A stretch of 64,000 bases of DNA from positions 87,081-151,080 of the forward strand of contig CAZZAT010000001.1 of assembly GCA_964652615.1 (NCBI GenBank). The letters run 5' to 3'. Under the pieces are notes generated by a model. It made no database searches. It was given only the letters and a program-made list of their open reading frames with translations, and was not told the DNA's origin. A program made the position numbers and the translations under genes. Below are positions 12,522-63,511 of this stretch, piece after piece; within the stretch, counting starts at the first letter, position 1; each line of letters opens with the position of its first letter. Source of the DNA: an uncultured Candidatus Saccharibacteria bacterium (lineage in GTDB: Bacteria > Patescibacteriota > Minisyncoccia > Phycocordibacterales > Phycocordibacteraceae).

Positions 12522-12866
12522 GGTTGGACTGGCACGATAAGCCGAGTTCTGTCGTGGACGACCATCTATCTAGGCGTTCGATTACTCGAACGCTCAAGCG
12601 GCGCTCCGGCATACTTCTTTCGAAATTACCGGTACGGCCTTGCACAGAAGTAAGGATTTTGCCGTTTCATTCCGGCATCGCTGCCGGCACGCTCTGCGTG
12701 AGAGCCTCTATTCTTTCGAAGTTGAGCGTTTCTGTTCGCACCTCGCGCCTTGCGGCGGACGGGTATTACCCGCTACCCATGCTCCGCACGTACGTGCGGC
12801 TGTGCTCGGACTTTCCTCAAAGCTTCTCTGTAGACAGGGAAGTTCGCGGTCGTCTGTGCCAGTCCG
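12522..12866 (-). ncRNA. rnpB: RNase P RNA, bacterial type A
   Basis: Minus strand carries the P4 motif GGAAAGTCCGAGCACAGCC and a 3' region CTAGATAGATGGTCGTCCACGACAGAACTCGGCTTATCGTGCCAGTCC nearly identical to E. coli M1 RNA (CCTAGATGAATGACTGTCCACGACAGAACCCGGCTTATCGGTCAGTT); P1 pairs GGACTGGCAC with GTGCCAGTCC. Confidence 0.85.
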
Positions 12867-44275: not shown

Positions 44276-44307
44276 TCTTGGTTGTCTGGGACGTAGTTGG
44301 AACCTTT
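44276..44307 (+). repeat. Island motif copy 1 (degenerate)
   Basis: CTTGGTTGTCTGGGACGTAGTTGGAACCTTTC versus consensus GCTGGCTGTCTGGGACGCTGTTGGAACCTTTC. Confidence 0.8.
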
Positions 44308-44336
44308 CATAAGAGCTTTCCTCACCTCAGAAGACC

Positions 44337-44365
44337 TTGACAGGAGTATGCGAGTGTGATAGTAT
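44337..44365 (+). promoter_or_regulatory. Sigma-70 promoter (TTGACA-N17-TAGTAT), 29 nt downstream of motif copy 1
   Basis: Consensus -35 at 44337-44342 and TAGTAT at 44360-44365. Confidence 0.6.
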
Positions 44366-44371
44366 GCTCGA

Positions 44372-44625
44372 GCCCTAGCGATGTCGGCACTCGGGTTGAA
44401 ATAAGTGCTGACTCTGCGGGAGTGCGTTTCGCTGCACCCCGTGGATTCGAAAGCGATGCATCTGTCCGGACGCGAGCACGAGCGTAACCGGCAGAGAAGA
44501 GCTCTTTAACCCCGGGAGCATTGCGTCTCCCTCAGACAGAATATTCAACCGTGCGGTTTGTTTTGAGCTGTAAACCGGCCTTAGGGCCAGAGCCCCGGAT
44601 CTCTCAGGAGACTCCGGGGCTCAAA
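44372..44625 (+). ncRNA. Candidate ~250-nt non-coding transcript (promoter to hairpin, no ORF)
   Basis: Lies between the promoter above and the 10-bp hairpin GAGCCCCGGA-N13-TCCGGGGCTC (44590-44622); GC-rich with multiple internal helices; the only ORF is a 62-aa read-through artefact. Confidence 0.4.
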
Positions 44626-44660
44626 CTTTACATCTTCGATAACGCCTCTTTTTCAGAAAT

Positions 44661-44692
44661 GCTGGCTGTCTGGGACGCTGTTGGAACCTTTC
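44661..44692 (+). repeat. Island motif copy 2 (consensus)
   Basis: GCTGGCTGTCTGGGACGCTGTTGGAACCTTTC. Confidence 0.85.
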
Positions 44693-44697
44693 TGAAT

Positions 44698-44725
44698 TTG
44701 ACAAAATAGTATTTATATGTAATAT
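44698..44725 (+). promoter_or_regulatory. Sigma-70 promoter (TTGACA-N16-TAATAT), 5 nt downstream of motif copy 2
   Basis: The -10 context ATTTATATGTAATAT nearly duplicates the copy-4 promoter. Confidence 0.6.
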
Positions 44726-44799
44726 GGGTACGGGTACCGAAACCATCCGAGCGATCACAGTCTTTGGTGCCCCTGTGTACGTTCGGTTTGGAGAGTGAA

Positions 44800-45219
44800 A
44801 TGACTATTGAAAATACGGTTGTTGAGACTGACCTCAATACGCTGTTTAGCGAACTCGCGCTGAATCCGAAAGAGTGGATTTTTCCTTTCGAAAAAGCCTT
44901 TGCGGGCGAATCGGAAGAGAGAATGGGAGGGAGACACCACGTCTCCGGTTTCGGGTTCATCACGGCAGATGGACATCATATTGGCCTCGGCGACGTAACA
45001 GTCGTCAATACAGCCCTGCTCGTCCGTCTCACCGGACTTCGTCATCAGCGCCAGCATCGCTTCATTGCGCTAGCCTGCAAGGCTATGCACACAGCGAAAG
45101 CGCGAGTGCTTGAGGTGAAGGTACGTTGGGGTACAGAAACAGTTCGCCGCATTCGCTTTGAACTTGGTGAAGAAGGCGGCGGGTACTGGCTCGACAACCT
45201 GACGATTTCACTCGTCTAG
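44800..45219 (+). CDS. Island orphan protein P1 (139 aa)
   Basis: Shine-Dalgarno GGAGAG before ATG at 44800; no recognisable domain; terminator hairpin GGGCGTGGC-TGTAAT-GGCCACGCCC with U-tract follows at 45228-45270. Confidence 0.55.
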   Translation: MTIENTVVETDLNTLFSELALNPKEWIFPFEKAFAGESEERMGGRHHVSGFGFITADGHHIGLGDVTVVNTALLVRLTGLRHQRQHRFIALACKAMHTAKARVLEVKVRWGTETVRRIRFELGEEGGGYWLDNLTISLV

Positions 45220-45284
45220 TTTGTGTGGGGCGTGGCTGTAATGGCCACGCCCTATTCATTTTTCATGAATACTATAGTTAGCGT

Positions 45285-45312
45285 GCTGACTGTCTGGGAC
45301 GCTGTTGGAACC
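45285..45312 (+). repeat. Island motif copy 3
   Basis: GCTGACTGTCTGGGACGCTGTTGGAACC, sandwiched between two terminator hairpins (45228-45270 and 45318-45345). Confidence 0.8.
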
Positions 45313-45317
45313 GAAAC

Positions 45318-45345
45318 GAGACACGCCACCCTAGCGGGTGGCGTG
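45318..45345. terminator. Bidirectional intrinsic terminator
   Basis: ACACGCCACCC-TAGC-GGGTGGCGTGT followed by AAATCAAGTTTTTATTTT on the plus strand. Confidence 0.6.
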
Positions 45346-45349
45346 TAAA

Positions 45350-45586
45350 TCAAGTTTTTATTTTCCTCACAGAAGCGTCTTGTGCAATCTTATGAGGCTC
45401 CATATAAGGAGTATTCCAGCGTAGCGGGCAGAGTCCGTAGTCTTCCACCTCCTCTGGCTCGGCACCGGTGAAGCGGTCAAAGCAGAAGGCGGCTGTTTCA
45501 GAGCATTTCTGATACAAGACGCCTTCTTCTGCATCGTCCGAAAGCATGAACACGTCGTTCTTCCGCAGCTGTTTGAATGTCAGCAT
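45350..45586 (-). CDS. Island orphan protein P2 (78 aa, acidic, four Cys)
   Basis: Shine-Dalgarno GGAG 9 nt upstream; no recognisable domain. Confidence 0.5.
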   Translation of the reverse strand: MLTFKQLRKNDVFMLSDDAEEGVLYQKCSETAAFCFDRFTGAEPEEVEDYGLCPLRWNTPYMEPHKIAQDASVRKIKT

Positions 45587-45630
45587 GGCGTTTACTCCGT
45601 TTCTCTAGGAGCAAGATATCATGAATTGTC

Positions 45631-45660
45631 GCTGGCCGTCTGGGACGCTATTGGAACTTT
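45631..45660 (+). repeat. Island motif copy 4
   Basis: GCTGGCCGTCTGGGACGCTATTGGAACTTT. Confidence 0.8.
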
Positions 45661-45687
45661 TTGTAGGAATCTTATATTTACTGGATA

Positions 45688-45715
45688 TTGACAATATATA
45701 ATATTTATGTAATAT
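45688..45715 (+). promoter_or_regulatory. Sigma-70 promoter (TTGACA-N16-TAATAT), 27 nt downstream of motif copy 4
   Basis: Consensus -35; the -10 context ATTTATGTAATAT nearly duplicates the copy-2 promoter. Confidence 0.6.
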
Positions 45716-45762
45716 AGTAGTGGGTTACTTTGCACCCATCAGTCAACCAGGGAGAAATCACC

Positions 45763-46332
45763 ATGACTGACGGCATCAAAGCGCACGTCAAAATCGAACA
45801 GCATCCCAACCCGAAAATCCGCGACTTTCACGTAACGTGCGAAGTCTCGGCAATTCGTGGCATCTATGGGTTCGGCGAAAATGAAATGATGAACTTCGGG
45901 GAAAAGAGCCCCGGCGACCTCGCCGAGACGCTTGCGAAGAAGCTCATGACCATCCCCGGCGTTACCGGAGGCAACTTCAAACGCTACGAGGTCCGTGTCG
46001 ACATTAGCGACGCGTTCAGCTGGCAAGACGTTGGGCCGTTGGTGCTCGGGGAGATTGTGAAAAATCTCTTTCCGGAAACCAACGGCGCCACGATTGACAT
46101 CAGCACTCGTATCGGATGGAGCTACTTCGTCCGACCCAGTCCTGCCTACGATTTCATGGGCGAGGACGACGACGGCCACCGGACACGCTACGTGGACATG
46201 GTGAATCGTCAGGCGGTTGAGGTGAAGTTCGGCTCCGGCCGACCCATCCTCGACGTCGAACATCTGTTCGGTTCTGAAGCCCTGACCCAAGCCAAAGCGA
46301 AAGCTGCGGCCGAGGTTGTGATCGAAGACTGA
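45763..46332 (+). CDS. Island orphan protein P3 (190 aa)
   Basis: Shine-Dalgarno GGGAGA before ATG at 45763; no recognisable domain; terminator AAGCCCCGTAG-GAAAC-CTACGGGGCTT with U-tract follows at 46351-46385. Confidence 0.55.
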   Translation: MTDGIKAHVKIEQHPNPKIRDFHVTCEVSAIRGIYGFGENEMMNFGEKSPGDLAETLAKKLMTIPGVTGGNFKRYEVRVDISDAFSWQDVGPLVLGEIVKNLFPETNGATIDISTRIGWSYFVRPSPAYDFMGEDDDGHRTRYVDMVNRQAVEVKFGSGRPILDVEHLFGSEALTQAKAKAAAEVVIED

Positions 46333-46386
46333 CGTGCGTATATGCACCTTAAGCCCCGTAGGAAACTACGGGGCTTTTGTATTTAT

Positions 46387-46418
46387 GCTGGCTGTCTGGG
46401 ACGCTGTTGGAACCTTTT
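46387..46418 (+). repeat. Island motif copy 5 (consensus)
   Basis: GCTGGCTGTCTGGGACGCTGTTGGAACCTTTT, beginning directly after the P3 terminator U-tract. Confidence 0.85.
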
Positions 46419-46457
46419 GGACACATGTGGTAGGGTCTGTCCAGAACTAAGGAGGCG

Positions 46458-46739
46458 ATGATGCCAATCAAACATGTGTTCGAGAAGATCAAAGAGCTTA
46501 CACCTGCAGGCATACAGGGAGGTGAGGTCGTTCTGGAAGACGGGACTAAGTTCCGCCTTCCGGTCGAAGCCAGCCTAGAATACGGCCTCTTGCGAGTAGG
46601 CTACAGCGTCCTGCTCGATTTCGATCACTACGAAGACACCAACATCATCTATATGCATGTCTTCCGTCTCGGCAGGCATGTCACTAATCTGGGTTTCGAT
46701 CGTGAAAATGTTCCAATCGAATCACCGGTTCTTGCTTAA
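46458..46739 (+). CDS. Island orphan protein P4 (93 aa)
   Basis: Strong Shine-Dalgarno TAAGGAGG before the ATG; no recognisable domain; terminator GGCGGTCA-GAAA-TGACCGCC with U-tract follows at 46748-46774. Confidence 0.55.
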   Translation: MMPIKHVFEKIKELTPAGIQGGEVVLEDGTKFRLPVEASLEYGLLRVGYSVLLDFDHYEDTNIIYMHVFRLGRHVTNLGFDRENVPIESPVLA

Positions 46740-46846
46740 ACCAAACAGGCGGTCAGAAATGACCGCCTTTCTTTATGCTGGCATTTTAGGATTCGAACCT
46801 ACACTTGTGTACCTCTTGGGGACAGCTGTTTTGCTAGCCTTGAGGC

Positions 46847-52918: not shown

Positions 52919-54013
52919 ATGGGAAATCAAAAACTACAGAAAATCGTCTCTTCTACTCTTTTTGATAGAAGAAAATCAAATAAAAGCGGTTCTTTCACTA
53001 TGATTGATCTGTTCGCAGGAATAGGAGGGATTCGTCTTGGTTTTGAAAGTATTGGGGGTGAATGTGTCTTCACTTCTGAATGGGACGAATCTGCAAAAAA
53101 AACATACCAAGCAAACTTCTCGGAGATACCCTACGGAGATATCACTCAGATAGCTCCAGAAGATATTCCATCTTTCGATATACTTCTTGCAGGCTTTCCA
53201 TGTCAGCCCTTCTCTCAAGCGGGAAGAAAACTCGGACTTGCAGATACACGTGGAACGCTATTCTTTGATATTGCCAAAATTGTTGAACACCATAAGCCAA
53301 AAGTAGTATTTCTTGAAAATGTAAAAAGGTTCAAGAGTCATGATGGAGGTAGGACTTTCAAAACTATTACTTCCATTCTTGAGGATTTTGGATACGAGAT
53401 ACATGCCAAAGTGCTCAATGCGAAAGATTTTGGAGTTCCTCAAAATAGAGAAAGAATCTATATCATAGGATTCCTTGGTAAAACGAATTTCTCTTTCCCA
53501 AAACCGTCCGGTAAGCAAACGTTATTGGGAGATATCTTGGAACAGAAACCCGATGATAAGTATACGATTTCTGATACTCTCTGGGCCGGACACCAAAGAA
53601 GGAAAAAGGAACATTTGGAGAAAGGAAACGGATTCGGATACTCCCTCTTCGATAAGAAATCCCCCTATACAAGTACGATTTCTGCACGATACTACAAAGA
53701 CGGCTCTGAAATCCTTATAAAGCAAAAAAAGGGAAACCCCAGAAAACTTACTCCTCGTGAAGCTGCCCGCCTCCAAGGTTTCCCAGATTCCTTTATTGTC
53801 TCAACAAGCGATACACAAGCATACAAACAATTCGGGAATAGTGTTGCCGTACCTGTTATAAAAGCACTCGCTAAAGAAATCAAAAAAGCTTTACTGGACA
53901 TGGAGGTCGCTTCTGGTAAGGCACAATCTATCAACTTAGACAAACTACGAGAAACGAGCGTACAGGAAGCGAGAAAGAGTATCCCTTCTCGATTAGTAGG
54001 AGTCAGTCACTAA
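52919..54013 (+). CDS. DNA (cytosine-5)-methyltransferase (type II modification enzyme)
   Basis: Motif I DLFAGIGG, motif IV GFPCQPFS, motif VI ENV and motif VIII QFGNSVAVP; low-GC coding region. Confidence 0.9.
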   Translation: MGNQKLQKIVSSTLFDRRKSNKSGSFTMIDLFAGIGGIRLGFESIGGECVFTSEWDESAKKTYQANFSEIPYGDITQIAPEDIPSFDILLAGFPCQPFSQAGRKLGLADTRGTLFFDIAKIVEHHKPKVVFLENVKRFKSHDGGRTFKTITSILEDFGYEIHAKVLNAKDFGVPQNRERIYIIGFLGKTNFSFPKPSGKQTLLGDILEQKPDDKYTISDTLWAGHQRRKKEHLEKGNGFGYSLFDKKSPYTSTISARYYKDGSEILIKQKKGNPRKLTPREAARLQGFPDSFIVSTSDTQAYKQFGNSVAVPVIKALAKEIKKALLDMEVASGKAQSINLDKLRETSVQEARKSIPSRLVGVSH

Positions 54014-54781
54014 AGAATCCCAATACTTATTATCTGCACGCCAATTAGCATACGGACGTGCGTTCCCATCATACATACCACTATCGAAAAAGATGATGCC
54101 TTTTCGAACGCCGTCAATCCATGTATTGAACGTAATGGGATTACCAAAAACTATCTTTGTGTAAACTCCATTCGCATCTTTTTGACATTTAAACCAACCT
54201 AGTTTGTTAAATTTGTCCTCAACGCGCTTTTTCATCATCTCTGCCTCCCAGACAGCAAGTATGAGGTTATCCTTCTGGAGTGGTCGTGGTACGATTTTTT
54301 GTTTATTTGGACGTTGATCTTTAGAATATGAATAGACAGCATAGATAGTTCCTTGTGCATCAACTTTCAGTTTTTGACCAAAAGAATTCCACTTATTAAT
54401 TTTTGGCGCCGGTTTCCCTGACCAAGAGTATCTATTTTCTTTTGATGAATTCGGAGCTCCGAAAATCATCAAGAATTTCTTTCGGTCGAGATTGTATTCA
54501 TTTCCTTTTCTATAGATCCGCAATTTTGCACTCGGAGACCAATCACCGAAAGTGGTTTTGCTTGTGGTGTTGTTTTTCATCTCAAATCCATCAAGATCTG
54601 GCGCGTTCCTGCCGTTATGTTTTATTCCCATTTGTTTTTCAAGCCAATGACCACCCTTGCCATCATGAGATACATGGGCCTCTGATGTATCAGGGACTTT
54701 GCCTTTCACTTTCTGAATGAAAAGCTTAACTATTCTCCGCTTAATCTGCGCAGAGGTCTCTTTCTTGATGGACTTTGCCAT
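53993..54781 (-). CDS. Putative type II restriction endonuclease partnering the m5C methyltransferase
   Basis: Convergent and 3'-overlapping (21 nt) with the methyltransferase gene; Lys/Asp/Glu-rich 262-aa protein with no other assignable function; low GC. The ORF-track start at 54799 is a TTG; ATG at 54781 (MAKSIKK) is preferred. Any resemblance to ScrFI/LlaMI-type enzymes is from memory only. Confidence 0.5.
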   Translation of the reverse strand: MAKSIKKETSAQIKRRIVKLFIQKVKGKVPDTSEAHVSHDGKGGHWLEKQMGIKHNGRNAPDLDGFEMKNNTTSKTTFGDWSPSAKLRIYRKGNEYNLDRKKFLMIFGAPNSSKENRYSWSGKPAPKINKWNSFGQKLKVDAQGTIYAVYSYSKDQRPNKQKIVPRPLQKDNLILAVWEAEMMKKRVEDKFNKLGWFKCQKDANGVYTKIVFGNPITFNTWIDGVRKGIIFFDSGMYDGNARPYANWRADNKYWDSLVTDSY

Positions 54782-54838
54782 ATACGGCGATGGTAGCAAA
54801 TATCTAAGAAATCGCCCATGGGAGCGATTTCTTAGATA

Positions 54839-63230: not shown

Positions 63231-63511
63231 AGCTCACTGTATGGCTTAGCCAATAACAGTGGCGGGTAACACAAAACCCGCCACCAGAGAGGAGCCTTAC
63301 GGACATCCCCTACCAGGGTTTCCCCTGATAACACAACGAAGGCCCTGATGACGGGTTTTCTATCTTCGTTGTGTTTTTAGACCATGCCCGAGGAATCCCT
63401 CGAGTTTAGGTCCTGCCCATTACAGGCCTTTATTCAGTTGTAGTCCTGTGATGCCCAGAAAGGCACCACTTCTAAAGTGTAGCCCAAGATGGTTCCTGCG
63501 CGAAGAGGGGT

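What the first reader, a model, noticed from the sequence alone, without database searches (positions are those of the whole stretch)
44276..46802. Tandem cassette island: a repeated ~30-nt motif, cloned sigma-70 promoters, orphan small proteins and one non-coding transcript
Between the VIT transporter gene and alkB, five copies of GCTGGCTGTCTGGGACGCTGTTGGAACCTTT occur in the same orientation at 44276, 44661, 45285, 45631 and 46387. A truncated sixth copy (TTTATGCTGGC then divergence) lies at 46774.

Copies 1, 2 and 4 are each followed, 5-29 nt later, by a near-consensus TTGACA-N16/17-TA(A/G)TAT promoter. Two promoters share an almost identical -10 context (ATTTAT(A)TGTAATAT), as if a promoter module had been copied.

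Each promoter is followed by a Shine-Dalgarno site, a small ORF with no recognisable family (139, 78 antisense, 190 and 93 aa) and its own GC-rich terminator. The next motif starts right at the terminator U-tract.

A modular motif-promoter-gene-terminator array with no integrase, transposase or known domain does not match integrons (no palindromic attC), CRISPR arrays, diversity-generating retroelements or standard operons. It sits next to an ECF sigma/anti-sigma pair, so the motif might be its regulon operator. I regard this as the most likely undescribed system in the window.
Basis: seen in the sequence. Interest (0 to 1): 0.82.

Follow-up and report, generated by a model that had tools for sequence, protein, structure and literature searches.

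The report
Serine-integrase attachment-site gene cassette array
The repeated 30-nt motif is one half of the docking site of a serine-integrase mobile element that targets the tRNA-Gln gene in ultra-small Patescibacteria, so the island is a stack of small genes held between integration junctions, resembling an integron but using different machinery; I found no description of it in the papers I could search.

Summary
Five same-strand copies of GCTGGCTGTCTGGGACGCTGTTGGAACC, plus a sixth partial copy, bound five small modules between the VIT and alkB-like genes.

The interpretation changes. The motif is not an operator. It is the P' half-site of attP of a large serine recombinase (LSR) family carried on 5-8 kb rolling-circle replicons of Patescibacteria.

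- **Free form:** in the circular element the LSR gene's 3' end runs directly into the motif.
- **Integrated form:** the LSR gene's 3' end runs into the antisense 3' end of tRNA-Gln, and an ordinary motif copy marks the element's far boundary.
- **Wider pattern:** across 211 related loci, 425 copies are never mixed in orientation within a locus. All 46 tRNA-Gln genes found lie antisense and downstream of the array. Another 42 arrays end at a tRNA-3'-like fragment, as this window's does (46777-46799).
- **Site geometry:** motif and tRNA share two sequence blocks whose spacing differs by 5 bp, the published attP/attB signature of serine integrases.

The window therefore holds four attL-type junctions, a diverged distal one and an attB-like anchor, but no LSR in 64 kb. 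How sub-kb single-gene cassettes accumulate is unresolved. This looks like a new variant of a known kind (SCC-like or integron-like).

The parts
44277..44306 (+). Copy 1, the distal-most junction (attL type). It has a full P' arm (GTCTGGGACGTAGTTGGAACC), but its left arm is diverged: TCTTGGT in place of TGCTGGC. It overlaps the upstream region of the VIT gene.
   Evidence: nhmmer 29 bits, the weakest of the five
44307..44660 (+). Cassette 1. It has no ORF. It has a promoter-like site at 44337-44365 and a terminal GC-rich hairpin at about 44586-44620. It is a candidate structured RNA.
   Evidence: MFE -112.6 kcal/mol, z -4.4; no Rfam hit
44661..44691 (+). Copy 2, an inner attL-type junction: GCTGGCTGTCTGGGACGCTGTTGGAACCTTT.
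44692..45284 (+). Cassette 2. Promoter at 44698-44725, P1 (139 aa) at 44800-45219, terminator at 45225-45255.
   Evidence: orphan protein
45285..45313 (+). Copy 3, an inner attL-type junction (GCTGACTGTCTGGGACGCTGTTGGAACC). It lies between two convergent terminators.
45314..45630 (-). Cassette 3. P2 (78 aa) lies at 45350-45586 on the minus strand, with its terminator at 45336-45324.
45631..45661 (+). Copy 4, an inner attL-type junction (GCTGGCCGTCTGGGACGCTATTGGAACTTTT).
45662..46386 (+). Cassette 4. Promoter at 45688-45715, P3 (189 aa) at 45763-46332, terminator at 46351-46376. P3 has an Nfu_N-like N-terminal fold.
   Evidence: A 49%-identical homologue sits in another motif-bounded cassette in L367.
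46387..46417 (+). Copy 5, the innermost attL-type junction (exact 31-mer).
46418..46776 (+). Cassette 5. A conserved promoter-like extension (TGGACACATGTGGTAGGGTCTGTCCAGA, then GGAGG) precedes P4 (93 aa) at 46458-46739, followed by a terminator at 46747-46768.
   Evidence: The same extension stands in front of unrelated genes after 33 of 425 motif copies.
46777..46799 (+). The array anchor, a B'-type half-site: GCTGGCATTTTAGGATTCGAACC. This is the reverse complement of a tRNA 3' end (acceptor strand plus T arm) with no tRNA body. With its left flank TTTAT it forms an attB-like site.
   Evidence: B' model match 46786-46801, E 0.11. No tRNA was called here.

Best explanation
**What the motif is (shown).** It is the P' arm, the element-side half-site, of the attachment site of a family of large serine recombinases (LSRs). 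These enzymes are encoded on small (5-8 kb) rolling-circle replicons of Patescibacteria.

- On the free circle, attP consists of the 3' end of the LSR gene, the core GCTG, and then the motif.
- The chromosomal partner, attB, is the 3' end of tRNA-Gln or a 25-nt copy of it. Read on the motif strand it is GCTG-nnn-GAC-nn-GGA-n-TCGAACC.
- Integration therefore leaves, at the far end of the element, a junction made of arbitrary chromosomal flank, TTGCTG and the P' arm. That junction is an attL, and it is exactly the repeat seen in this window.

**What the window holds (shown).** It is a fossil or resting stack. There is one diverged distal attL and four inner attLs. A terminal attB-like site has the tRNA-like half (46777-46799). 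Five small self-expressed modules lie between them.

**How the stack formed (inferred).**
- Elements dock repeatedly at the tRNA-proximal site, so the newest module lies next to the anchor.
- Excision that uses an alternative attL copy or a pseudo-site removes the recombinase core, leaves cargo behind and regenerates a usable attB.
- Excision that uses a more distal attL picks cassettes up and carries them to new hosts.
- No LSR is encoded in this 64-kb window, so the array can change only if an LSR is supplied from elsewhere in the genome or by an incoming element.
For: **1. Link to tRNA-Gln.**
- In 211 motif-bearing loci (1.2 Mb) there are 425 copies, and orientation is never mixed within a locus.
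- Of the 71 tRNA genes found there, 46 are tRNA-Gln. All 46 are antisense to the motif and lie downstream of the last copy. No other tRNA type occurs more than five times.
- A further 42 arrays end at a tRNA-3'-like fragment.

**2. Link to the LSR.**
- A protein of about 490 aa with Resolvase, Recombinase and Zn_ribbon_recom domains is the tRNA-proximal gene in eight motif loci.
- Where the junction could be read (L336, L289, L116), its reading frame runs into the antisense tRNA; in L336 and L289 the stop codon lies inside it.

**3. Independent test.**
- Three overlap tRNA-Gln and one overlaps tRNA-Tyr.
- All four have a motif copy on the same strand, 3.8-6.5 kb upstream of the LSR start, at a position that fits the element's far boundary.

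**4. attP seen directly.**
- L371 and L372 come from two separate sequencing runs. They are exact circular permutations of one 6,521-bp circle in which the LSR 3' end is followed by GCTG and then the motif.
- At least nine of the 120 closest LSR homologues have C-terminal tails that translate the motif (..LLAVWDDVGT..).
- At least 58 read into tRNA-Gln (..LLRD, DSNQD..).

**5. Site geometry.**
- P' and B' share GCTG, a G.C..GGA block and a T.GAACC block.
- The last block starts at position 24 in P' and at position 19 in B'.
- That 5-bp shift is the one reported between serine-integrase attP and attB half-sites (PMC3783163).

**6. Natural experiment.**
- L245 and L289 come from one metagenome.
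- They are identical through the tRNA and 39 nt beyond it, up to GCTGG, and unrelated to the left of that point.
- One holds a 0.5-kb cassette there and the other a 6.9-kb LSR element.

**7. Match to this window.** Its architecture fits the model: the distal copy has a diverged left arm, the inner copies are complete, and the last site has the motif's left arm joined to a tRNA-like right arm.
Against: - No recombinase is encoded in the 64-kb window (tblastn), and there is no intact tRNA-Gln. Activity here is therefore not shown.
- Canonical serine integrases recombine only attP with attB, or attL with attR when a directionality factor is present. They do not explain by themselves how a stack of attLs separated by about 0.5 kb arises.
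- Inner copies carry no remnant of the LSR 3' end; only 2 of 416 show weak matches. Simple decay of full elements is therefore unlikely.
- The left arms show little conservation beyond TTGCTGG, which is unusual for serine-integrase sites.
- No recombination directionality factor was identified.
- The loci were retrieved by an exact core match, so the counts of perfect copies are biased upwards.
- The trend for distal copies to be more degenerate is weak (Spearman rho 0.15, p 0.03).
Confidence: 0.85

Rival explanations
1. The array is an active platform that works like an integron or an SCC island. Each motif-bounded module is a mobile unit in its own right. An LSR acting in trans excises it as a small circle and reinserts it at the tRNA-like anchor, much as ccr-less pseudo-SCC elements are moved by Ccr recombinases.
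For: - There are 247 distinct cassettes with a tight size range: median 556 bp, interquartile range 402-734. Of the 224 small ones, 187 have one dominant ORF.
- Boundaries are clean and carry no LSR remnants.
- A P3 homologue (49% identity) sits in a motif-bounded cassette with its own similar promoter, among entirely different neighbours, in L367.
- Within a genome, all copies share that genome's own motif variants.
- One genome can hold several arrays.
- Array content differs completely next to an identical tRNA region.
Against: - No cassette circle was observed.
- Cassettes lack the LSR-gene-derived P arm that the free elements carry.
- Canonical serine integrases do not recombine attL-type sites with one another.
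- Almost no cassette is shared between the sampled genomes, so movement has not been caught in the act.
Confidence: 0.3
2. The motif is a transcriptional control element. It would be an operator or promoter element of the adjacent ECF sigma/anti-sigma pair, or of another regulator that co-ordinates the small genes.
For: - The motif lies upstream of promoters in copies 1, 2 and 4.
- It contains GGAAC, which resembles an ECF -35 element (from my own knowledge, not tested).
- In 33 of 425 copies it continues into a conserved promoter-like extension, in which TTGGAA could serve as the -35 element.
Against: - No ECF sigma or anti-sigma homologue occurs in the other 210 motif loci.
- Cassette genes lie on either strand relative to the motif, 82 against 105.
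- Copy 3 sits between two convergent terminators.
- The distance from motif to promoter varies from 6 to 30 nt.
- Near-perfect 28-33-nt identity, the fixed polarity of whole arrays, and the links to tRNA-Gln and the LSR are not properties of operators.
Confidence: 0.04
3. The region is an integron-type array lacking its integrase (a CALIN). The motif would be an attC site recombined as folded single-stranded DNA by a tyrosine integrase, IntI.
For: - It is a unidirectional array of single-gene cassettes bounded by a repeated site.
- Most cassette genes are orphans.
Against: - The motif and its flanks form no hairpin as single-stranded DNA on either strand (z from -0.5 to +0.9).
- It is conserved in sequence, not in structure.
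- Cassettes carry their own promoters and face either way.
- The associated recombinase is a serine enzyme, not IntI.
Confidence: 0.01
4. The motif is a dispersed REP- or MITE-like repeat, or a chance cluster, with no functional tie to the genes.
For: It is a short non-coding repeat in intergenic DNA.
Against: - It occurs only in this cluster within the 64 kb.
- In other genomes it is always clustered, always of one polarity, and anchored at tRNA-Gln or a tRNA-like fragment.
- It has no inverted-repeat structure.
Confidence: 0.02

Closest known systems
Staphylococcal cassette chromosome (SCC/SCCmec) composite islands, integrated by the Ccr large serine recombinases at the 3' end of rlmH (orfX)
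   Same: - A large serine recombinase docks circular elements at the 3' end of one conserved housekeeping gene.
- Successive elements stack in tandem, separated by direct copies of the integration-site sequence.
- Some stacked units lack the recombinase.
- Cargo is accessory. In the LSR elements here it is restriction-modification systems, a Thoeris-type TIR protein and a CBASS-type cyclase.

The SCC properties listed are from my own knowledge.
   Different: - The target is a tRNA gene, not a protein-coding gene.
- The units are ten to a hundred times smaller: about 0.5 kb, one gene each, with its own promoter and terminator.
- The carrier is a rolling-circle replicon of 5-8 kb.
- The recombinase is only distantly related to structurally characterised LSRs. 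The best solved relative is the SPbeta YokA/SprA integrase, E 4e-11. Ccr proteins were not compared.
- Trans-mobilisation has not been shown.
Integrons (IntI tyrosine recombinase, attI, attC cassettes)
   Same: - A unidirectional array of mostly single-gene, mostly orphan cassettes sits at a fixed platform.
- By inference, the newest cassette lies nearest the anchor.
- Within one genome the boundary sites are homogeneous.
   Different: - The recombinase is a serine enzyme, not a tyrosine one.
- The boundary site is a conserved double-strand sequence of about 28-33 nt with no hairpin.
- Cassettes carry their own promoters and lie in either orientation.
- No platform promoter drives the array, and no integrase gene lies next to most arrays.
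Phage and prophage serine-integrase attachment sites (Listeria A118/LI integrase, Bxb1, phiC31, SPbeta SprA)
   Same: - The domain set is the same: Resolvase, Recombinase and zinc ribbon.
- The junctions are hybrid attL/attR sites.
- attP and attB share only a short core.
- A 7-8-bp outer block sits 5 bp closer to the centre in attB than in attP (PMC3783163).
   Different: - Only the right-hand half-sites are conserved; the left arms are nearly free.
- The target is a tRNA 3' end.
- attP overlaps the integrase stop codon, so the protein's C-terminal tail differs between the free and integrated states.
- attL-type sites occur in arrays.
Tandem genomic islands at tRNA genes, integrated by tyrosine integrases
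   Same: - A tRNA 3' end is used as attB.
- Fragments resembling the tRNA 3' end repeat in direct orientation downstream of the tRNA.
- Islands accrete over time.
   Different: - The repeat here is not a copy of the tRNA end. It is a distinct site, 5 nt longer.
- The crossover lies at the extreme 3' end (GCTG), not within the T or anticodon arm.
- The recombinase is a serine enzyme.

Membership tests
Large-serine-recombinase attachment site (attL / P' half-site) | A gene for a recombinase with Resolvase, Recombinase and zinc-ribbon domains is physically linked to the site. | tested here: met
   This holds in related loci, not in the window.
- The LSR lies next to the arrays in eight motif loci.
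- Pfam domains are confirmed.
- Four of four independently chosen LSR homologues have a motif copy at the position that fits their element's far boundary.
- The window itself has no LSR.
Large-serine-recombinase attachment site (attL / P' half-site) | The site forms one half of attP on the free circular element. | tested here: met
   - L371 and L372 are circular permutations of one 6,521-bp circle, with the LSR 3' end followed by GCTG and the motif.
- L370 shows the same junction.
- At least nine of 120 LSR homologues have tails that translate the motif.
Large-serine-recombinase attachment site (attL / P' half-site) | Integrated elements are flanked by hybrid sites: attL is B plus P', and attR is P plus B'. 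| tested here: met
   - In L289, L336, L116, L359, L362 and L365 the far end is flank plus TTGCTG plus motif.
- In the same loci the near end is the LSR 3' end plus GCTG plus the antisense tRNA-Gln.
Large-serine-recombinase attachment site (attL / P' half-site) | [quoted passage not shown] | tested here: met
   The T.GAACC block starts at position 24 from GCTG in P' and at position 19 in B', including the window's own sites. The rule is from PMC3783163. That each block is bound by the assigned protein domain is inferred.
Large-serine-recombinase attachment site (attL / P' half-site) | Strand exchange occurs at a central dinucleotide shared by the partner sites. | tested here: inconclusive
   The only sequence common to attP, attB, attL and attR is GCTG (ACTG in L115 and L338, in both their tRNA flank and their motif copies). 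L245 and L289 diverge exactly to the left of GCTGG. The exact dinucleotide needs biochemistry.
SCC-type composite island (recombinase-less units moved in trans) | Units that lack the recombinase are excised and integrated by a recombinase supplied in trans. | not testable with these tools
   There are only indirect hints: a P3-family cassette in a different array, and complete array turnover next to an identical tRNA region.
Integron / CALIN | The attC site folds as an imperfect hairpin in single-stranded DNA. | tested here: not met
   Four copies on the + strand and two on the - strand, each with 20-nt flanks, gave z from -0.5 to +0.9 against shuffles. The repeat finder found no arm pairing.
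Integron / CALIN | Cassettes are promoterless and co-oriented, expressed from a platform promoter next to intI. | tested here: not met
   Cassettes have their own near-consensus promoters. Orientation is 82 against 105. No tyrosine recombinase was seen next to the arrays.
CRISPR array | Repeats of 25-40 nt are separated by spacers of similar, short length. | tested here: not met
   Spacing in the window is 346-756 nt and the intervals contain expressed genes. The median cassette across loci is 556 bp.
ECF sigma promoter or operator regulon | The motif co-occurs with the regulator across genomes and holds a fixed position and orientation relative to the regulated genes. | tested here: not met
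   There are no sigma or anti-sigma homologues in 210 other loci. Genes lie in either orientation, and the distance to promoters varies.
REP / MITE dispersed repeats | Many copies are scattered through the genome, usually with internal dyad symmetry. | tested here: not met
   The window has a single cluster in 64 kb. Elsewhere the copies are clustered, of one polarity and anchored. There is no dyad symmetry. Whole genomes could not be scanned.

The most novel reading that the evidence does not exclude
Patescibacteria may possess a phylum-wide gene-capture platform run by a serine recombinase. Single-gene cassettes, each with its own promoter and terminator, would be stockpiled, shuffled and exported at tRNA-Gln-type anchors. 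The exchange would be between [flank-P'] junctions and a [flank-B'] landing site, driven by LSRs carried on small rolling-circle replicons. This would be a functional analogue of integrons, built from unrelated parts, and a main route by which these minimal genomes sample new genes.
Probability: 0.3. Interest if true: 0.85.

Novelty: new variant of a known kind. Interest (0 to 1): 0.62.

Why it matters
**Genome variability.** Patescibacteria have tiny, streamlined genomes. Apart from natural transformation, little is known about how they acquire genes. This locus type appears in many of their lineages: Paceibacterota, Saccharibacteria as labelled, Nomura-, Wolfe-, Kaiser-, Lloyd- and Berkelbacteria. 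One genome can hold several arrays. The arrays contain hundreds of unrelated orphan genes. The elements that build them carry defence cargo: restriction-modification systems, a Thoeris-type TIR protein and a CBASS-type cyclase. The locus is therefore a plausible main site of genome variability in the group.

**Practical use.** The analysis yields a complete candidate parts list for a serine integrase native to these organisms: the enzyme family, attP, attB and the likely crossover core. Serine integrases are standard one-way integration tools. Genetic tools for Patescibacteria are scarce.

**Open mechanistic question.** A stack of attL-type sites separated by only about 0.5 kb is not explained by the standard rules of serine-integrase directionality.

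Tried and rejected
**Ideas tested and dropped.**
- **tRNA at the sixth copy.** ARAGORN and Rfam (E up to 10) call nothing there. It is only a 3' fragment.
- **Known RNA family for the motif or for cassette 1.** No Rfam match.
- **Sigma-54 promoter.** Read by eye, TGGGACG-N3-TTGG has one base too few between its two blocks. I dropped it without a tool test.
- **ssDNA hairpin (attC-like).** No fold better than shuffles.
- **Motif as a homogenised copy of the resident tRNA end.** Only the GCTG/ACTG core tracks the tRNA. The acceptor-stem positions do not.
- **Cassettes as deletion remnants that keep the LSR 3' end.** Only 2 of 416 weak matches.
- **Compositional island.** GC is 0.47-0.57 across the array and 0.50-0.58 in the flanks, so there is no signal.

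**Searches that led nowhere.**
- **Viral origin.** The first viral scan returned 120 hits. As far as the printed output shows, nearly all are one conserved alphaproteobacterial coding stretch (..VWDDVGTFDGRPW..). The Patescibacteria-specific pattern has 0 viral hits.
- **Recurrent neighbour genes across loci.** Only housekeeping synteny on the tRNA side recurs: ORFs I read by eye as dnaX- and dus-like. No recombinase appeared until the larger tRNA-proximal units were inspected.
- **Strain polymorphism of the window's own array.** The two Logan contigs are identical to the window. L238 starts and ends inside identical motif copies 2 and 5; L373 starts inside copy 2 and ends within P3.
- **Cassette protein function.** Pfam, PADLOC and PHROGs give nothing usable. 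P3 has only a weak Nfu_N-like fold.
- **Literature.** I found no paper linking serine recombinases, tRNA-Gln and Patescibacteria. The 10-mer text search returned only unrelated papers.
- **afdb50 fold library.** It was unavailable.

Full report
**1. The observation**

The repeat is real.
- The core GTCTGGGACGNNNTTGGAAC occurs five times without mismatch, all on the + strand, at 44284, 44668, 45292, 45638 and 46394.
- It does not occur elsewhere in the 64 kb. Shuffles give 0.1 matches on average.
- The 31-mer is exact at 44661 and 46387.
- The repeat finder adds the partial sixth copy TTTATGCTGGC at 46772.

- Near-consensus promoters lie at 44337, 44698 and 45688, and terminator hairpins are present.
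- ORFs of 139, 78 (minus strand), 189 and 93 aa are present.
- The flanking genes are a VIT-family transporter and a 2OG-Fe(II) oxygenase (alkB-like). An ECF sigma and a DUF5667 anti-sigma lie upstream.
- The first module (44307-44660) has a promoter and a terminator but no ORF. Its RNA folds well below shuffles (z -4.4).

**2. The motif elsewhere**

An exact-core scan of one genome per species returned more than 117 loci. They fall into two classes.
- One class is a coding stretch in Alphaproteobacteria and their prophage-like contigs. It also explains nearly all viral hits. I take this match to be coincidental.
- The other class is intergenic and restricted to genomes labelled Patescibacteria.

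In the second class the consensus is TTGCTGGCA-GTCTGGGACGATGTTGGAAC-CTTT.
- Copies often cluster, with up to 7 in one 8-kb locus.
- A stricter pattern found 0 viral loci and more than 120 metagenome loci.
- Over 211 loci (1.2 Mb) there are 425 copies, and orientation is never mixed within a locus.

**3. The tRNA-Gln anchor**

- Forty-six of the 71 tRNA genes in these loci are tRNA-Gln.
- All 46 lie on the strand opposite the motif, downstream of the last copy, with their 3' end facing the array. No copy lies beyond them.
- Another 42 arrays end at a conserved 25-nt fragment, TTGCTGGCAGACTAGGGATCGAACC. This is a tRNA-Gln 3' end without the tRNA body.
- The window's 'truncated sixth copy' is a diverged member of that class: GCTGGCATTTTAGGATTCGAACC at 46777-46799. 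It is the reverse complement of an acceptor strand plus T arm, and no tRNA is callable there.

**4. The recombinase**

Most units between copies are about 0.5 kb. A few tRNA-proximal units are 5-7 kb, and these end in a gene of about 490 aa.
- Its reading frame runs into the antisense tRNA. In L336 the sequence reads ...ATG CTG CGG GAC TAG.
- Pfam identifies it as a large serine recombinase (LSR) with Resolvase, Recombinase and Zn_ribbon_recom domains.
- The gene next to it is a rolling-circle replication initiator (REP_ORF2-G2P/RepSA), and an XRE regulator is also present.
- The family is large: at least 2,855 homologues at E below 1e-30. Where a source gives a name, it is a Patescibacteria group.
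- The nearest solved structure is the SPbeta YokA/SprA integrase, at E 4e-11.

- Three overlap tRNA-Gln and one overlaps tRNA-Tyr.
- All four have a motif copy on the same strand, 3.8-6.5 kb upstream of the LSR start.

**5. attP seen directly**

- Two contigs from different sequencing runs (L371 and L372) are exact circular permutations of one 6,521-bp circle.
- On that circle the LSR 3' end is followed by GCTG and then the motif. There is no tRNA on it.
- Among the 120 closest LSR homologues, at least nine have C-terminal tails that translate the motif (..LLAVWDDVGT..).
- At least 58 read into a tRNA-Gln end, and about 30 read into other tRNA-like T arms.

The motif is therefore the P' arm of attP. 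Each chromosomal copy, with its arbitrary left flank plus TTGCTG, is an attL-type junction.

**6. Site geometry**

- P' reads GCTG GCA G T C TG GGA CGATG T TGGAACC.
- B' reads GCTG nnn G A C nn GGA n TCGAACC.
- The two share the core, an inner block and an outer block. The outer block starts at position 24 in P' and at position 19 in B'.
- Rutherford et al. 2013 showed that the zinc-ribbon-domain motif of serine-integrase sites lies 5 bp nearer the centre in attB than in attP (PMC3783163).
- The window's own sites obey this rule. That each block is bound by the assigned protein domain is inference.

**7. A natural experiment**

L245 and L289 come from one metagenome.
- They are identical through tRNA-Gln and 39 nt beyond it, up to GCTGG.
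- To the left of that point they are unrelated. One holds a 0.5-kb cassette and the other a 6.9-kb LSR element.
- This places the exchange point at the GCTG core. It also shows that small cassettes and full elements occupy the same slot.

**8. The cassettes**

- There are 247 distinct units, with a median of 556 bp and an interquartile range of 402-734 bp.
- Of the 224 small ones, 187 have one dominant ORF. It lies on either strand: 82 on the motif strand and 105 on the other.
- Apart from duplicate assemblies, almost none are homologous between genomes.
- The window's proteins are orphans. P1 has no homologue but itself, and P3 has about ten.
- One P3 homologue (49% identity) again sits in a motif-bounded cassette with its own TTGACA promoter, among unrelated neighbours.
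- The P3 model is confident (pLDDT 87.5) but shows only a weak Nfu_N-like N-terminal fold.

**9. What is not explained**

- Inner copies are never preceded by LSR 3' remnants; only 2 of 416 show weak matches. The cassettes are therefore not simple stumps of decayed elements.
- Under the standard rules, attL sites are inert without attR and a directionality factor.
- Internal, partly degenerate motif copies do exist inside free and integrated elements (L370, L364 and L365). Excision that uses alternative attL copies could therefore both drop and pick up cassettes.
- That step is inferred. So is the order in which the newest cassette lies next to the anchor. Distal copies are only slightly more degenerate (rho 0.15, p 0.03).
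- A conserved promoter-like extension follows 33 of 425 copies, including window copy 5, in front of unrelated genes. Its role is open.

**10. Rivals**

- The ECF operator idea fails on co-occurrence and on orientation.
- The integron idea fails because the motif forms no hairpin.
- A dispersed repeat is excluded by the clustering, the fixed polarity and the anchoring.

**11. Novelty**

Serine integrases, tRNA-linked islands, SCC composite islands and integrons are all known. I found no paper that links a serine recombinase, tRNA-Gln and Patescibacteria, or that describes arrays of sub-kb cassettes bounded by serine-integrase junctions. That search covers open-access text only.

I rate this a new variant of a known kind. 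The identity of the motif is well supported (0.85). The active-platform reading is possible (about 0.3).

Noticed in passing
window 44307-44660: The first module has a near-consensus promoter and a terminator but no ORF. The predicted 263-nt RNA (44366-44628) folds at -112.6 kcal/mol, z -4.4 against shuffles. It has no Rfam match and no homologue in 1.2 Mb of related loci.
   Followed up: partly
window 46414-46450, and 32 other motif copies in related loci (e.g. L020, L019, L093, L260): A conserved extension follows the motif at a fixed offset: CTTTATGCAA-N4-TGnTAGGKTTCTGTCYAGA, then a Shine-Dalgarno site and the start codon of unrelated genes. It reads as a promoter, with the -35 element TTGGAA inside the motif and an extended -10, plus a palindromic element. 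GTCYAGAC resembles the motif's own GTCTGGGAC.
   Followed up: partly
window 52919-54799: A type II restriction-modification pair: a C-5 cytosine methyltransferase (52919-54013, +) and a LlaMI/MvaI-BcnI-type endonuclease (53993-54799, -).
   Followed up: no
window 63291-63412 and 12522-12865: A LOOT RNA (79 bits, minus strand) and a bacterial class A RNase P RNA (125 bits, minus strand).
   Followed up: no
L371/L372 (6,521-bp circle), L370, L359, L365: The LSR rolling-circle elements carry anti-phage cargo. It includes a CBASS-type cyclase (SMODS/DncV-like with AGS_C), a Thoeris-type ThsB TIR protein, BglII and BsaWI restriction-modification systems, DpnI, Mrr, MutH with a methyltransferase, and HEPN.
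   Followed up: partly
LSR homologues P0001-P0120; L336 9150-9200; L371 3189-3239: The LSR reading frame crosses the attachment site. The protein's C-terminal tail therefore differs between the free form (..LLAVWDDVGT..) and the integrated form (..LLRD stop, or a read-through of the whole antisense tRNA, ..LDSNQD..SYH). This could act as a switch between the two states.
   Followed up: no
L364 (P0034): A member of the same LSR family sits on tRNA-Tyr instead of tRNA-Gln, yet has the same P' motif at the far end of its element. About 30 of the 120 closest homologues read into T arms that do not look like tRNA-Gln. Target specificity therefore seems to shift within the family.
   Followed up: partly
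L019, L020 and L093 (Parcubacteria bacterium C7867-008); also L013/L096/L097 and L043/L103/L112: One genome can hold three or more separate arrays. Only some lie next to a full tRNA-Gln; the others end at the 25-nt tRNA-like fragment. How arrays or anchors reach non-tRNA positions is unknown.
   Followed up: partly
L002, L003, L005 and others; nearly all the viral loci L118-L237 whose flanks were printed: The 20-nt core also matches a conserved coding stretch (..VWDDVGTFDGRPWRGAVDIVTAG..) in alphaproteobacterial genomes and prophage-like contigs. The match extends to CCTT and yields the same peptide (VWDDVGT) as the LSR tail read through the motif. I treated it as coincidence.
   Followed up: no
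L238 (window 44662-46411) and L373: L238, a public short-read assembly of this organism, starts and ends inside identical motif copies 2 and 5. L373 starts inside copy 2 and ends within P3. Arrays of this kind will often be fragmented or lost from metagenome bins.
   Followed up: yes
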